Origin: a virus
Length of the DNA: 64,000 nt
Strand: one strand, 5' to 3'
IMG/VR virus record: IMGVR_UViG_3300034111_001103
Coordinates: 32,001 to 96,000 of that record
Shown: piece after piece, positions 20,215 to 64,000 of the stretch
Numbering within the stretch: the first letter of the stretch is position 1
Layout of the letters: the number at the start of each line of letters is the position of its first letter
Notes under the pieces: generated by a model
Seen by the model: only the letters and a program-made list of their open reading frames with translations
Told to the model about the DNA's origin: nothing
Databases searched by the model: none
Translations under genes and position numbers: made by a program

Positions 20215-21912
20215 TTAGTAAGGAGCAGACAATTCAAATAAGATTGATTTTGTAGGATCTTTCAACCAGATATTAGATTGATTTTCCATGATAGTTGTAG
20301 AACCATCAAATCTACTTGAAGCTACATTACCTCTACCTGCTGAAGGAGCATATGGAGATGTTCTACCTGCAATATAAGTTACTTTAGTACCTGGCATTCC
20401 TGCATTTCTTACTAAGTAAATATTTGCTCCAGTATCTACACCTTTAGCCCATTCTACTTGAGAAGTTACTTGAGCAGCATTTGTTGATGCTGAGTCTGTA
20501 ACATCAAATATAGCAGAAGTGTAAGAATGTTTAGGGAAACCTCCAATATAAGGTTCATCTTCAGTTCTTGAGAACTGTGAATCAAATGCTGGGTTATGTT
20601 CTATTTCAAGAGTACCTAAACCAGAGATGAATACAGATTGCATTCTATAACCAGAAGATAATTGAGATATACCATTTATTTCACCTACTTTTTTAACTAT
20701 ACCAAGATCAGCTGCTTGTAATACTGCACCAGCTTGATTAGCTGTTCTATTTAATTCTTCATTAAAGATTCTTTGAAGTTCATTAACTGCACCTCTACCA
20801 CCTTGTAATTTGAATTTTCTCATATAATCAGGAATGTCTGGTCTGTTTCTGAAAACTTGTCCAAATACATTCATTAAAGCTTGTTTAGAGTATCTAGGGA
20901 TTTTAGCCCAGTTACCTCTTTTCATTTGTTGGTATAAACCTTCACCTATGATTTGAGATTTGTTTCTAGCACCTTGTATAACACCTCCTTTTGCCCACAT
21001 AAGATCTCTTTCTTCATCTAACATTAATTGTTTCATGATAAGAGCATCAGCCATAGACATCCAAGAAGCTGTACCAGGTTTAATACCTTGCATACCATCA
21101 GTACCTAATTTACCATTACCTTCACCAATAACCATATAGAAATTAGGGTCATTTGGATTTAAAAGGTTAGAGTTACCTCCTACAAAGTCTACAGGAGTAG
21201 TACCATTATTTTTATTGAATTGTAGATTCAATCTTTGAGCATTACCTGTGATAGTATACTCAACACCTCTTCTACCTCCCAATTGATGTTTTAATTTCAT
21301 CATACCAAAAGAGTTCTCAATACCTGCAAAGTTTTCTGTGAATTCTCCACCTGTACCTGAAATTCTAAAGTATTGTGTACCTACAGATAAATATTTTTTA
21401 TCAAAGTATTCATCTCTATTGTTAGTTACTAGTCTTACTTTGTAAATAAAACCTTGACCACTTTGAGCAGATGCTACATCCACAATGTAAAGATTTTGTC
21501 CATCTCTGAAGTCTGGAGTAATTCTTGTTCCAATTTGGAAAGTTGGTTCTAGATTACCATCACCTAAACAGATTTCAAATAATTGACCATCTTGACCTGG
21601 TTTAGCTATATCAGTACTCATTTCCTCTTTTACAGTAACACCATCTAATTGGTAAGGCATGTTGAAAGTTAATTCTCCATCATCTCCATTTAAATAGATA
21701 GTATTTTTTTGTAATTCTGTCATTGACAATAATGGTGTAGAGATAAGAGACCATTGATTCCATGCTGAGAGAACTCCCATATGAGTAGATCTAATATCAT
21801 CTCCAAACATCTTTAATAAGTTGTTTGAGTCTGTAAAAACTCCAGACATTCTATAATCTGCTTTTTTTACTACTAAGTTATTGCCAAAATTCTGAAAAGT
21901 AGGTGTTGCCAT
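20215..21912 (-). CDS. Major capsid protein (crAss-like)
   Basis: 565 aa; order terminase-portal-acidic protein-MCP; GEGLYQQ, HNPAFD and C-terminal WLKDPT motifs. Confidence 0.85.
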   Translation of the reverse strand: MATPTFQNFGNNLVVKKADYRMSGVFTDSNNLLKMFGDDIRSTHMGVLSAWNQWSLISTPLLSMTELQKNTIYLNGDDGELTFNMPYQLDGVTVKEEMSTDIAKPGQDGQLFEICLGDGNLEPTFQIGTRITPDFRDGQNLYIVDVASAQSGQGFIYKVRLVTNNRDEYFDKKYLSVGTQYFRISGTGGEFTENFAGIENSFGMMKLKHQLGGRRGVEYTITGNAQRLNLQFNKNNGTTPVDFVGGNSNLLNPNDPNFYMVIGEGNGKLGTDGMQGIKPGTASWMSMADALIMKQLMLDEERDLMWAKGGVIQGARNKSQIIGEGLYQQMKRGNWAKIPRYSKQALMNVFGQVFRNRPDIPDYMRKFKLQGGRGAVNELQRIFNEELNRTANQAGAVLQAADLGIVKKVGEINGISQLSSGYRMQSVFISGLGTLEIEHNPAFDSQFSRTEDEPYIGGFPKHSYTSAIFDVTDSASTNAAQVTSQVEWAKGVDTGANIYLVRNAGMPGTKVTYIAGRTSPYAPSAGRGNVASSRFDGSTTIMENQSNIWLKDPTKSILFELSAPY

Positions 21913-61897: not shown

Positions 61898-63094
61898 ATG
61901 ATAAATACAGAATTAAAACCTTCAGAAGTAGTAGAATTATTAAAATATGTAATTCCTCAAAACATAAAATTAGCAGAAAAAGGACATCATCCAGTTGCTT
62001 ATAATATAATAGGAGAACCTGGTATTTCTAAATCAGCTGTAGTAGATCAAACAGCTAGAGAATTAAACACTCATCATTATATATCATTAAATCTTTCAAT
62101 GGCTGAAGTAGGTGATTTAATTGGATTTCCTATAACACAATACAAAGTTTGTAAAAATGAAGAATGTTTGTGGATAGGAGATAAATTATTAAATGATTAT
62201 ATTTTACAAGGTTATCATGCTAATGGAGAAAGTAGAATGAGTTATGCTAAACCTGAATGGTTAGTTGGAAAAGAAGATAAACCTGTAATATTAAATTTAG
62301 ATGATTTTTCCAGATGCTCTCCTATGATGATGAATGCTTGTATGCAATTAATTGTAGCTCAAGAAACAATTTCTTGGACATTACCAAAAGGTAGTACTGT
62401 AATTTGTACTTCTAATCCTGATGATGGGGATGAAAGTTTTTCAGTTACAACAATGGATGAAGCTCAAAAAACTCGCTATATCCCTATAAGAATGAAAGCT
62501 AGTGTAGAAGATTGGGCATTAAACTTTGCAGAAAAAGCTGAAATAGGAAGTCCTTTTATAAATTTTCTTTTAAAAAATCCTGAAATAATAGAAGGGTCTA
62601 ATGTAGATGCTGATGGTAATCATTGTAAAAAAGGAAATTTAAGAATTTGGACTAAATTTTTCCAAGCTTCAGAAGGATTATGTAATAATTTATCTGATAA
62701 TTGGAAGATAGTCTTTAATTTAGGACAAAATGCTGTTCCTCAAGAACATCTATTAATGTTAAATAAGTTCATAGAAGATAAATTAGACAAATTATCTACT
62801 CCAGAACAATTATTAAAGATGAAACCAGAAGATGCTTTAAAAGACTTAAAAACTTGTATTGGTGAAGGTTCTAAGAAAAGAATAGATATTTCTTCCATAA
62901 TGAGTAGAAGAGTTATGAATTATGTGTTAGTAAACCATAAAAATTTCACTAAAGATATGATAAATAATTATGCTGAAATTATGGAATCTGAATATATGAG
63001 TCCTGATCTTGTTTTACTTTCAGTTAAGAAAACTACTAAGTTATTTCCAGAGTTGATCAAGCGAGAAAAATTAATTAAAATATTAACTACTTAA
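61898..63094 (+). CDS. MoxR-like AAA+ ATPase
   Basis: GEPGISKS (Walker A variant), LNLDDF (Walker B), TSNP, DEAQKTR. Confidence 0.8.
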   Translation: MINTELKPSEVVELLKYVIPQNIKLAEKGHHPVAYNIIGEPGISKSAVVDQTARELNTHHYISLNLSMAEVGDLIGFPITQYKVCKNEECLWIGDKLLNDYILQGYHANGESRMSYAKPEWLVGKEDKPVILNLDDFSRCSPMMMNACMQLIVAQETISWTLPKGSTVICTSNPDDGDESFSVTTMDEAQKTRYIPIRMKASVEDWALNFAEKAEIGSPFINFLLKNPEIIEGSNVDADGNHCKKGNLRIWTKFFQASEGLCNNLSDNWKIVFNLGQNAVPQEHLLMLNKFIEDKLDKLSTPEQLLKMKPEDALKDLKTCIGEGSKKRIDISSIMSRRVMNYVLVNHKNFTKDMINNYAEIMESEYMSPDLVLLSVKKTTKLFPELIKREKLIKILTT

Positions 63095-63157
63095 TAATAA
63101 TAATAATAAAAGTGGTATATTTGTAAAAGAGTATACCACTTTTTAAATTTTATAATT

Positions 63158-63451
63158 ATGATAGAAGAAAAATGGGCACAAGAATTTCAATATTTATATT
63201 CAGATGATACAGAAATAGTTTGTTTATATTTAAATATAATTTATGAAAAATATGGTAAAGATGTTTTAATAGACTATTTTAAAGCAAAAGAAGATATGGA
63301 TAGGTTATTTTATGCTTATGGTGATCCTACAACTAATACTTTAATAGCAATATCAACAAATTTTAAACCTACTTTTTATTTTTTATTTGAAAATAATAGA
63401 TTTATTTCTAGATCTGAACAATTGAAAAATAATAAAAATCTTATAATATGA
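63158..63451 (+). CDS. Small protein, SxDxE-module family
   Basis: YLYSDDTEIVCLYLNIIY. Confidence 0.65.
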   Translation: MIEEKWAQEFQYLYSDDTEIVCLYLNIIYEKYGKDVLIDYFKAKEDMDRLFYAYGDPTTNTLIAISTNFKPTFYFLFENNRFISRSEQLKNNKNLII

Positions 63452-63696
63452 CATTAAAAAAAGCATTAGAAGGGGATGATTTAGATATTATAAATCTTTA
63501 TTTACAAATAGTATATCAAAATGAAGGTTTAGGAGCTGTTACTAAAGCTTTTGAAGGAACAAAAAAGTATTCATTTTATGAGTTAAATGGTATACTTACT
63601 TTATTAAGATGTAATGCTTTTTATGAAAATATGTGGTTAAAAGATCCAACTAAATCCATTTTAATAGAACTTAATAATAATGATGACAATGATTAA
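63448..63696 (+). CDS. Small protein, SxDxE-module family, carrying an MCP C-terminal-like peptide
   Basis: ALEGDDLDIINLYLQIVY; NMWLKDPTKSILIEL versus MCP NIWLKDPTKSILFEL. Confidence 0.7.
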   Translation: MTLKKALEGDDLDIINLYLQIVYQNEGLGAVTKAFEGTKKYSFYELNGILTLLRCNAFYENMWLKDPTKSILIELNNNDDND

Positions 63697-63946
63697 AGAA
63701 TTACAAAATCTATTTAAATTTGTAAAATCTAAAGATAGAGAAATATCAGAATTATATTTAAAATTAGTATTAGATAAGTATAAAATTGATATAGTTGAAG
63801 ATTATGTTTTTAGATATGAACCTAATATTATAATAACAAACCATTTAATACCTCAAGTAAAATCTATTACTATAAGATTATTTGCTACCCCAAATTATTA
63901 TTATGAATATGATACGAAGATAAAAGAATTTTTAAATTCTCGTTAA
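63680..63946 (+). CDS. Small protein, SxDxE-module family
   Basis: FVKSKDREISELYLKLVL. Confidence 0.65.
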   Translation: MMTMIKELQNLFKFVKSKDREISELYLKLVLDKYKIDIVEDYVFRYEPNIIITNHLIPQVKSITIRLFATPNYYYEYDTKIKEFLNSR

Positions 63947-64000
63947 ACCCTTTAAAGAAATGAAAAAAGAAGATTACTTAGAAAGTGATGATATAGAAAT

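What the first reader, a model, noticed from the sequence alone, without database searches (positions are those of the whole stretch)
63448..63696. Small early-region protein carries a copy of the major capsid protein's C-terminal peptide
Seen: 63628-63672 encodes NMWLKDPTKSILIEL, and the MCP gene (20230-20274, minus strand) encodes NIWLKDPTKSILFEL: 13 of 15 identical, with 10 consecutive identities. Six of the 13 identical residues use different codons, so the match is better at protein than at DNA level. The peptide is fused to the shared SxDxE module. Established: several anti-phage systems are triggered by capsid proteins (e.g. CapRel, Lit/Gol peptide). Inference: a self-mimic or decoy that titrates a capsid-sensing defence, or a regulator/chaperone adaptor of capsid assembly. 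Alternative: a fragment captured from a related phage's MCP gene.
Basis: partly seen in the sequence, partly recalled or inferred. Interest (0 to 1): 0.8.

Follow-up and report, generated by a model that had tools for sequence, protein, structure and literature searches.

The report
Small phage protein copies capsid hairpin
A freshwater crAss-like phage makes a small non-structural protein whose tail is an old, selectively kept copy of the most conserved 15-17 residues of its own capsid protein, which suggests a molecular mimic, but its target has not been found.

Summary
The 82-aa ORF at 63448-63696 ends in NMWLKDPTKSILIEL. The crAss-type major capsid protein (MCP, 20215-21912, minus strand) ends in NIWLKDPTKSILFEL. 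That is 13 of 15 identical residues, 10 of them consecutive, and 6 of the identical residues use different codons.

Within this genome alone the match is only borderline: 1 of 30 shuffled proteomes reached the same score. Relatives make it solid:
- The MCP motif is conserved in MCPs down to 22% identity.
- The small-protein copy survives in about eight sub-lineages whose remaining sequence is only 23-36% identical.
- The two family profiles align over 17 columns (hhalign probability 97.6%).
- Synonymous sites between the two copies are saturated (pS 0.78, pN 0.10), so this is an ancient capture kept by selection, not a recent neutral one.

The ORF belongs to a tandem, fast-diversifying family. 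Members share an N-terminal three-helix module and have variable C-termini. The array sits between a MoxR-like ATPase gene and a DUF2201 VWA/metallopeptidase gene. The family is accessory: it is absent from many related phages, and some alleles are truncated.

My best reading, which is inference, is a competitive mimic of the capsid hairpin, probably used in conflict with the host. An assembly role or plain structural reuse remain live alternatives. I could not test co-variation with each genome's own MCP. Earlier notes from this scan on the same genome had already described the module family.

The parts
63448..63696 (+). 82-aa small protein gene, the peptide-bearing member of the tandem module family
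   Evidence: ORF seen. Twelve or more distinct homologues have the frame intact. Against L002, pN 0.10 and pS 0.19. AF2 mean pLDDT is 80. The start overlaps the upstream paralog's stop (ATGA), and the next paralog starts 17 nt before this ORF's stop.
63448..63552 (+). N-terminal three-helix module (residues 1-35), shared with the paralogs
   Evidence: AF2 predicts helices 3-7, 12-26 and 28-34 with pLDDT 90-94. BLAST to paralogs gives E 4e-5 to 0.07.
63625..63675 (+). MCP-like C-terminal hairpin (residues 60-76; core NMWLKDPTKSILIEL at 63628-63672)
   Evidence: AF2 predicts strands 61-65 and 72-75 with pLDDT about 60.
20215..21912 (-). Major capsid protein gene (565 aa, crAss type)
   Evidence: Pfam PF23898, phrog_35737, and a Foldseek match to the phicrAss001 MCP in 7qoi/7qof.
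20230..20274 (-). Conserved C-terminal hairpin motif of the MCP, the source of the copy
   Evidence: The motif is conserved in 120 homologues of 46-100% identity and in MCPs down to 22% identity. AF2 predicts strands 537-550 and 557-561 with pLDDT about 80.
63158..63451 (+). Paralog 1 of the tandem array (97 aa), without the capsid peptide
63680..63946 (+). Paralog 3 of the tandem array (88 aa), without the capsid peptide
63960..64000 (+). Start of paralog 4 (96 aa; it runs past the window end to genome position 96250)
61898..63094 (+). MoxR-like AAA+ ATPase, the conserved upstream neighbour of the array
   Evidence: phrog_1297 at E 7.5e-27. Homologues carry precomputed PF07726/PF07728. Synteny is seen.
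63108..63143 (+). Strong hairpin between the ATPase gene and the array (terminator-like or attenuator)
   Evidence: 15-bp stem, dG -17.1 kcal/mol, z -5.5. No function was tested.

Best explanation
Shown: The 82-aa ORF is a real gene. It belongs to a tandemly duplicated, fast-diversifying family of small proteins in the replication/early-middle gene block. Each member has an N-terminal three-helix module and a variable C-terminal beta part. The array sits between a MoxR-like AAA+ ATPase gene and a DUF2201 VWA/metallopeptidase gene. In one subfamily the last two beta-strands are a copy of the MCP's C-terminal strand-turn-strand, the most conserved sequence element of crAss-type capsid proteins. 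The copy lies at the C-terminus in both proteins, as expected from capture of the 3' end of an MCP gene. It is old and under purifying selection.

Inferred: The protein works as a molecular mimic. It is made from a non-structural gene block, and it displays the capsid hairpin on a small scaffold. In this way it occupies the site of whatever factor recognises that hairpin on MCP. Because the family is accessory, patchy and rapidly diversifying, I think that factor is most likely a host component that recognises the invariant capsid element (a decoy or bait role). The shared N-terminal module may tether the bait to the neighbouring ATPase/VWA-peptidase pair.

No step of the binding, the timing or the tethering has been shown.
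For: The copy is real and old:
- The match holds at family level.
- pS is 0.78 and pN 0.10 over the 15 codons.
- A Ser codon class switch (TCN to AGT) occurs among homologues.

It is under selection. The peptide is kept in about eight sub-lineages:
- the window clade P0001-P0006
- P0258
- P0130 and P0135, which keep 11/15 and 10/15 peptide residues against 16/60 and 14/60 elsewhere, Fisher p 0.0013 and 0.0023
- P0131
- L063, 23% identical overall but ending ...IFVKDTTKTVLIDL
- L060

The small-protein copies share a consensus of their own (PTKS, then I three residues before the end). That points to one capture followed by independent constraint, not repeated conversion.

The MCP element is the family's most invariant stretch, so it is a logical recognition target.

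The context is that of an accessory, conflict-type gene:
- Arrays hold 2-7 paralogs with variable C-termini.
- Ten related MCP-bearing genomes have no second copy of the motif.
- G003 has the ATPase and VWA genes but no array.
- Truncated alleles occur.

The order ATPase, array, VWA/peptidase is conserved in six lineages. In the AF2 model the hairpin is the least confidently packed part (pLDDT about 60, against more than 90 for the helices). That fits a displayed element.
Against: - No binding partner is known and no defence system is identified.
- A decoy that binds a sensor could also trigger it.
- The peptide has decayed in some lineages (P0131 partly; P0129 and P0133 fully) and is cut off by stop codons in others (P0127/P0259, L060). 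It is therefore dispensable at least sometimes.
- Among close relatives the peptide is not more conserved than the N-terminal module.
- A D-P-T turn with flanking aromatic and aliphatic residues is a good beta-hairpin former in its own right. Part of the conservation may therefore be purely structural.
- Expression timing is inferred from gene position only.
- Co-variation with the resident MCP could not be tested. The one circumstantial pair does not co-vary: P0131 has W...T-I-S, while an F...T-R-S MCP sits on another contig of the same metagenome.
Confidence: 0.35

Rival explanations
1. Regulator or adaptor of the phage's own capsid assembly. The mimic binds MCP, or a partner of the MCP hairpin such as the auxiliary capsid protein, the scaffold, or the neighbouring ATPase/VWA pair acting as a chaperone. 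In this way it delays or guides assembly.
For: - The copied element is the MCP's most conserved motif.
- In phicrAss001 the MCP A-domain contacts the auxiliary protein and forms the head-fibre pocket (PMC10172136).
- MoxR/VWA pairs are generally remodelling chaperones (general knowledge).
- The gene sits between them in six lineages.
Against: - Ten related phages with the same MCP family and motif have no second copy.
- Most of those ten lack the ATPase as well.
- G003 has the ATPase and VWA genes but no array.
- Natural truncated alleles exist.
A core assembly function would be expected to travel with the MCP.
Confidence: 0.2
2. Structural reuse only. A fragment of the MCP gene's 3' end was captured long ago. 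It now serves simply as the last beta-hairpin of the small protein's own sheet. It stays similar because the W...DPT...hydrophobic pattern is an intrinsically stable hairpin. No mimicry is involved.
For: - AF2 places the peptide as strands 3 and 4 of a four-stranded sheet of the small protein.
- Similar W-x-x-D-G/P-T hairpins recur in unrelated ELWxxDGT repeats.
- The peptide decays or is lost in some lineages.
Against: - The two copies sit in different protein environments, and synonymous sites are saturated. Even so, 13/15 residues are retained, including turn residues likely to be exposed (K, D, T, K, S).
- In P0130 and P0135 the peptide is by far the best conserved part of the protein.
- pLDDT is lowest in this hairpin.
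Confidence: 0.25
3. Chance or convergent similarity between two short beta-hairpins in an AT-rich genome with biased composition.
For: Within this genome alone the match is borderline. One of 30 shuffled proteomes reaches 32.7 bits, and E is 3.4e-4 multiplied by 227 queries.
Against: - Profile-profile probability is 92-97.6%.
- The motif recurs at the same C-terminal position in about eight diverged sub-lineages.
- It lies at the C-terminus in both families.
Confidence: 0.05
4. Recent neutral capture of a fragment from a related phage's MCP gene.
For: The C-terminal position in both genes fits capture of a 3' end.
Against: - pS is 0.78 between the copies.
- The peptide is present in homologues only 23-36% identical elsewhere.
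- The small-protein copies share a consensus of their own.
Confidence: 0.02

Closest known systems
Capsid-derived triggers of abortive infection: the Gol peptide of T4 gp23 sensed by Lit, and MCP sensed by CapRel
   Same: A short, conserved region of an HK97-fold MCP is the recognition element for another protein.
   Different: In those systems the element acts inside the MCP itself and activates a host toxin. Here a second copy sits on a separate small phage protein. No defence partner is known, and no sequence relation was tested.
Phage mimic and decoy counter-defence proteins, such as the DNA mimic Ocr and signal sponges (my own knowledge)
   Same: Small, accessory, fast-evolving phage proteins encoded outside the structural genes that act by imitating a ligand.
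   Different: The known ones imitate DNA or bind nucleotides. I know of none that copies a piece of the phage's own capsid protein. The searches returned nothing of the kind among listed titles and abstracts, which were not read further.
MoxR AAA+ / VWA adaptor systems such as CbbQ-CbbO and RavA-ViaA, and the ATPase plus DUF2201 gene pair of N4-like phages (my own knowledge; the one DUF2201-phage hit, PMC5735904, was not read)
   Same: The array lies between a MoxR-like ATPase gene and a VWA/metallopeptidase gene in conserved order.
   Different: No small adaptor family with variable C-termini is described for these systems. The link here rests on gene order only.
C-terminal cargo-loading peptides of encapsulins and capsid-targeting sequences of phage internal proteins (my own knowledge)
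   Same: A short terminal peptide on a small protein that could dock on an HK97-fold shell.
   Different: Those peptides are not copies of the shell protein itself. Packaging of this protein into virions is untested.
ELWxxDGT repeat proteins (TIGR04534) of Bacteroidota
   Same: Residues 33-60 of the window protein resemble one repeat unit of P0128, and both have a W-x-x-D-G/P-T hairpin.
   Different: The small protein does not hit the family model. The resemblance is limited to the window clade and is inflated by repeat summation. Its last 15 residues are far closer to the MCP.

Membership tests
crAss-type major capsid protein (Pfam PF23898), for the 565-aa protein | Profile match above the curated cut-off | tested here: met
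   52.5 bits against a cut-off of 27; phrog_35737 at E 1.3e-41.
crAss-type major capsid protein (Pfam PF23898), for the 565-aa protein | HK97-like fold closest to phicrAss001 gp32 | tested here: met
   Foldseek top hits are 7qoi, 7qoh and 7qof at E 8.7e-23 to 1.8e-17. The model's mean pLDDT is only 63.
MoxR-like AAA+ ATPase with VWA partner (neighbouring genes) | AAA_3/AAA_5 ATPase profile match | tested here: inconclusive
   The window protein scores 13.8 bits on AAA_5, below the cut-off of 22. It hits phrog_1297 'ATPase' at E 7.5e-27. Homologues carry precomputed PF07726/PF07728.
MoxR-like AAA+ ATPase with VWA partner (neighbouring genes) | Adjacent VWA-domain protein | tested here: met
   The intact homologue in L002 scores 33.3 bits on DUF2201_N (cut-off 23.2). 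It scores 21.1 bits on the DUF2201 VWA-like model, below that cut-off. In the window genome the gene is split (earlier notes e1-5632643 and e1-5644780).
Any described protein family, for the 82-aa protein | Profile or fold match | tested here: not met
   No hit in Pfam, PHROGs or NCBIfam. Foldseek found nothing at E <= 0.001 in PDB or BFVD. The best VIA-align Z was 4.2 (a weak or missing fold match does not show the fold is new).
ELWxxDGT repeat (TIGR04534) | Match to the repeat model | tested here: not met
   P0128 scores 225 bits. The small proteins P0001, P0130 and P0135 and the MCP C-terminus give no hit at E <= 1.
HEAT-like repeat, for the N-terminal module | Profile match | tested here: inconclusive
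   Only sub-threshold hints in paralogs: HEAT_2 at E 0.19 and DNA_alkylation at E 0.029.
Capsid-sensing defence triggers or decoys (Lit/Gol, CapRel-type) | Physical binding to, and activation or blocking of, a defence protein | not testable with these tools
   No host genome or defence partner is available. This needs bench work.
Capsid-targeting or cargo-loading peptides | Presence of the protein inside virions, dependent on the peptide | not testable with these tools
   This needs virion proteomics.

The most novel reading that the evidence does not exclude
The small protein is a bait. Its tail copies the one capsid element that crAss-type phages cannot change, so a host immune sensor aimed at that element binds the bait first. 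The shared N-terminal module then hands the captured sensor to the phage's MoxR-like ATPase and VWA/metallopeptidase for unfolding or cleavage. The other paralogs of the array would be baits for other host factors. On this reading the array is a modular, evolvable counter-defence system.
Probability: 0.13. Interest if true: 0.85.

Novelty: new variant of a known kind. Interest (0 to 1): 0.55.

Why it matters
If the mimic reading holds, this would be the first case I know of in which a phage carries a separate, selected copy of its own capsid's invariant recognition element. It would point directly at whatever reads that element. That could be a capsid-sensing immune protein of Bacteroidota-type hosts, for which almost nothing is known with crAss-like phages. 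Or it could be an unknown assembly factor.

It also gives a handle on two other open questions. One is a large family of small proteins with a shared N-terminal module and variable C-termini. The other is the unexplained MoxR/VWA gene pair found in crAss-like and N4-like phages.

If the peptide is only structural reuse, the case is still a clean example of a new small gene built from the 3' end of a structural gene.

Tried and rejected
- Predicted complex of the MCP (A2) with the small protein (A3): no verdict, score 0.00 against a mark of 0.32, controls not run. This is neither for nor against binding.

- Pairing each small protein with its own genome's MCP failed.
  - The loci are not in held records.
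  - IMG/VR holds only a 99% identical 46-kb contig and the 19.6-kb L063 contig.
  - The JGI pattern scan returned MCP genes only.
  - Two scans of GTDB genomes gave one mis-binned MCP contig with no ATPase in the same bin.
  - The 91.9-kb and 121-kb contigs that carry P0005 both end 14-17 kb upstream of the small gene.
  - MCP look-ups gave unrelated samples.

- Mapping the motif onto the solved phicrAss001 MCP by sequence failed: phmmer and profile searches found no PDB hit. Only the fold match worked. The paper does not describe the MCP C-terminus.

- Extending the similarity beyond 17 residues gave zero confidence outside the core.

- Looking for other virion-protein mimics among eight module-bearing ORFs of this genome found none.

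- tblastn of the small protein and of the MCP tail against GenBank phages was not informative.

- Rfam found no group I intron in L042 at gathering threshold.

- Literature searches for MoxR/VWA in phage capsid biology, capsid decoys and DUF2201 returned no listed title or abstract describing such a protein; the hits were not read further.

Full report
**Observation.** The window lies at 32001-96000 of a 168,934-bp, 27% GC phage genome.

The ORF at 63448-63696 (+) encodes 82 residues ending ...YENMWLKDPTKSILIELNNNDDND. The 565-aa ORF at 20215-21912 (-) ends ...QSNIWLKDPTKSILFELSAPY. It is a crAss-type major capsid protein:
- Pfam Crass_capsid scores 52.5 bits.
- PHROG 'virion structural protein' scores E 1.3e-41.
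- Its AF2 model matches the phicrAss001 MCP chains at Foldseek E about 1e-22.

The two 15-mers share 13 residues, 10 of them consecutive. Six of the identical residues use different codons.

**Is it more than chance?** Within this genome alone the match is only borderline.
- BLASTP gives E 5e-7 for the pair and 3.4e-4 against the 227 ORFs.
- One of 30 shuffled proteomes produced an equally good non-self hit.

Relatives settle the question.
- The MCP tail is the most conserved stretch of the whole MCP family. All 120 listed homologues (46-100% identical) carry [IV][WF]L[KR]DP[TGS][KR]S..L. Versions of it persist in MCPs only 22-31% identical and in a human-gut crAss-like phage.
- The small protein has homologues at 70-89% identity that all keep the peptide.
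- A profile search of 1.84 billion representatives found distant homologues that still end in the motif...SIWLQDPTKSILIQLE...THLKDPTKSIIIDLK and ...SWIKDPTISVLNC. A fuller allele in one of those clusters, P0258, ends ...IWLKEPTKSILIEP.
- In P0130 and P0135 the peptide keeps 11/15 and 10/15 residues while the rest keeps 16/60 and 14/60 (Fisher p 0.0013 and 0.0023).
- Two more sub-lineages came from ATPase-anchored loci. L063 is an 81-aa protein, 23% identical overall, ending ...SIFVKDTTKTVLIDLK. L060 ends ...FFVRDPTRTVLIEIS.
- Profile against profile, the two families align over 17-19 columns with probability 92-97.6%. The similarity does not extend further.

**Age and selection.** Over the 15 codons, the small gene and the MCP gene of this genome differ at pS 0.78 and pN 0.10. 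Synonymous sites are therefore saturated, and a recent capture or recent gene conversion is excluded.

Among small-protein homologues the core D-P-T-K-S is kept through synonymous changes, including a TCN/AGT serine switch. The small-protein copies share features of their own: T-K-S, and an isoleucine three residues before the end. MCP clades vary at these positions (K/R, T/G, F/L/V/I). This suggests a single ancient capture followed by separate constraint. In both proteins the motif is C-terminal, as expected if the 3' end of an MCP gene was fused to a small gene.

**What the gene is part of.** Four tandem, translationally coupled paralogs (genome 95158-96250) share the N-terminal roughly 35 residues.
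- AF2 models this part as three helices with pLDDT above 90. Four strands follow, and the last two are the capsid-like peptide, with pLDDT about 60.
- No family or fold match exists for the protein.
- The array lies between a MoxR-like AAA+ ATPase and a DUF2201_N/VWA metallopeptidase-like gene. A strong hairpin follows the ATPase gene.
- The order ATPase, array, VWA recurs in L002-L006, L020, L049, L060 and L063.
- Arrays hold 2-7 paralogs with very different C-terminal parts. L021 packs at least five into 1 kb.
- Earlier notes of this scan had already listed the module family and the ATPase/VWA locus. I confirm the four tandem paralogs by BLAST. The four more distant 'module' ORFs show only motif-level resemblance.

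**Distribution.** The family is accessory.
- Ten IMG/VR genomes with related MCPs carry the motif once only, in the MCP. Eight of them lack the ATPase.
- G003 has the ATPase at 72% identity and the VWA gene, but no array.
- The lineage of L057 has module ORFs downstream of the VWA gene, none with the peptide.
- The peptide is degraded in P0129 and P0133.
- It is removed by early stop codons in P0127/P0259, whose cluster-mate P0258 has it.
- In L060 it is cut off by a single in-frame TAA.
- None of the other module ORFs of this genome matches a virion protein.

**Mechanism.** Shown: an old, selected, C-terminal copy of the capsid's invariant hairpin on a small accessory protein, encoded between an ATPase and a VWA/peptidase gene. 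The rest is inference.

The retention of 13/15 residues in two different protein contexts after synonymous saturation suggests a shared external constraint, meaning a common binding partner. The residues likely to form the exposed turn are among those retained. Hence my preferred reading is competitive mimicry.

The patchy, fast-diversifying, truncation-prone nature of the family looks like a conflict gene rather than a core assembly factor. I therefore lean toward a decoy or bait for a host factor that recognises the MCP, perhaps coupled to the neighbouring ATPase/peptidase. My confidence in this is about 0.35.

Live rivals:
- A role in the phage's own capsid assembly (0.2).
- Plain structural reuse of a stable hairpin (0.25). 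W-x-x-D-G/P-T hairpins also occur in ELWxxDGT repeats, one of which resembles residues 33-60 of the window protein.
- Chance (0.05).
- Recent neutral capture (0.02), which is essentially excluded.

**Co-variation.** Every assembly that carries a small-protein homologue either is short or ends 14-17 kb upstream of it, and the public records are not held whole. Two hints point in opposite directions.
- The small family has both W-type and F/R-type variants (L060, L063), as the MCP family does.
- P0131 (W-type, partly decayed) lies on a 64.5-kb contig of a metagenome in which a 55.6-kb contig carries an F/R-type MCP. Whether the two contigs are one genome is unproven.

**Novelty and verdict.** The feature is real and conserved, and I know of no described equivalent. 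The literature searches listed none by title or abstract; I did not read the hits. Its function is open. I rate it a new variant of a known kind (mimic-type accessory protein, or a gene built from a captured structural-gene end), with interest 0.55.

Noticed in passing
Genome 96240-98888, just beyond the window end; also L042:2746-3975: The DUF2201/VWA gene is split into 304-aa and 122-aa parts by an insert encoding a 336-aa protein. Relatives have an intact gene of 423-426 aa. G003 carries a near-identical insert ORF at the same place. Earlier scan notes call it a group I intron in the MIDAS motif.
   Followed up: partly
L042:1196-1500 (G003): The MoxR-like ATPase of G003 is interrupted by about 305 nt between ...EIGD and LVGFP.... 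There is no ORF inside and no Rfam hit at gathering threshold. It may be a small intron.
   Followed up: partly
L060:5836-6053: The peptide-bearing paralog is interrupted by one in-frame TAA. It reads as 42 aa, then the stop, then 29 aa ending FFVRDPTRTVLIEIS. It could be a pseudogene, a polymorphism or an assembly error. The truncated 57-aa alleles P0127/P0259 sit beside the full 80-aa P0258.
   Followed up: partly
window 63544-63627 (residues 33-60 of the ORF) against P0128: The middle of the window-clade protein resembles one unit of an ELWxxDGT-repeat, T9SS-sorted Bacteroidota protein (40% over 45 aa). The HMM E-value is inflated by five repeats. The small protein does not hit TIGR04534.
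   Followed up: yes
L050:1 and L051:1, about 14-17 kb upstream of the small gene (about window 45-46 kb): Two independent long contigs end in the same region: L051 just upstream of the primase gene and L050 about 1.7 kb upstream of the AAA_24 gene that precedes it. Something there breaks assemblies, perhaps a repeat or a hypervariable stretch.
   Followed up: no
L054 (CAYQFS010000012.1): A 6.7-kb contig carrying an MCP whose last 120 residues are nearly identical to the window's (ending ...NIWLKDPTKSILFEVG) is binned in a 'Candidatus Saccharibacteria' MAG. This is probably a mis-binned phage contig.
   Followed up: partly
window 63108-63143: A 15-bp-stem hairpin (dG -17.1, z -5.5) sits between the ATPase stop and the first paralog. 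It may be a terminator or attenuator that sets the array's expression apart.
   Followed up: partly
L057:6551-8498 and L060:5258-6818: There are large arrays (6-8 ORFs) of small proteins starting with ...ML-x-S-x-D-x-E-x-x-x-LG..LL and having unrelated C-termini. Sub-threshold HEAT-like hints appear (HEAT_2 at E 0.19).
   Followed up: partly
MCP C-termini: After the conserved hairpin the MCPs carry variable tails, from none to 4-25 residues (SAPY, KPNGTLYTGRNSL, DAIQNNYN and others). The small protein's acidic NNNDDND tail is likewise specific to its clade.
   Followed up: no
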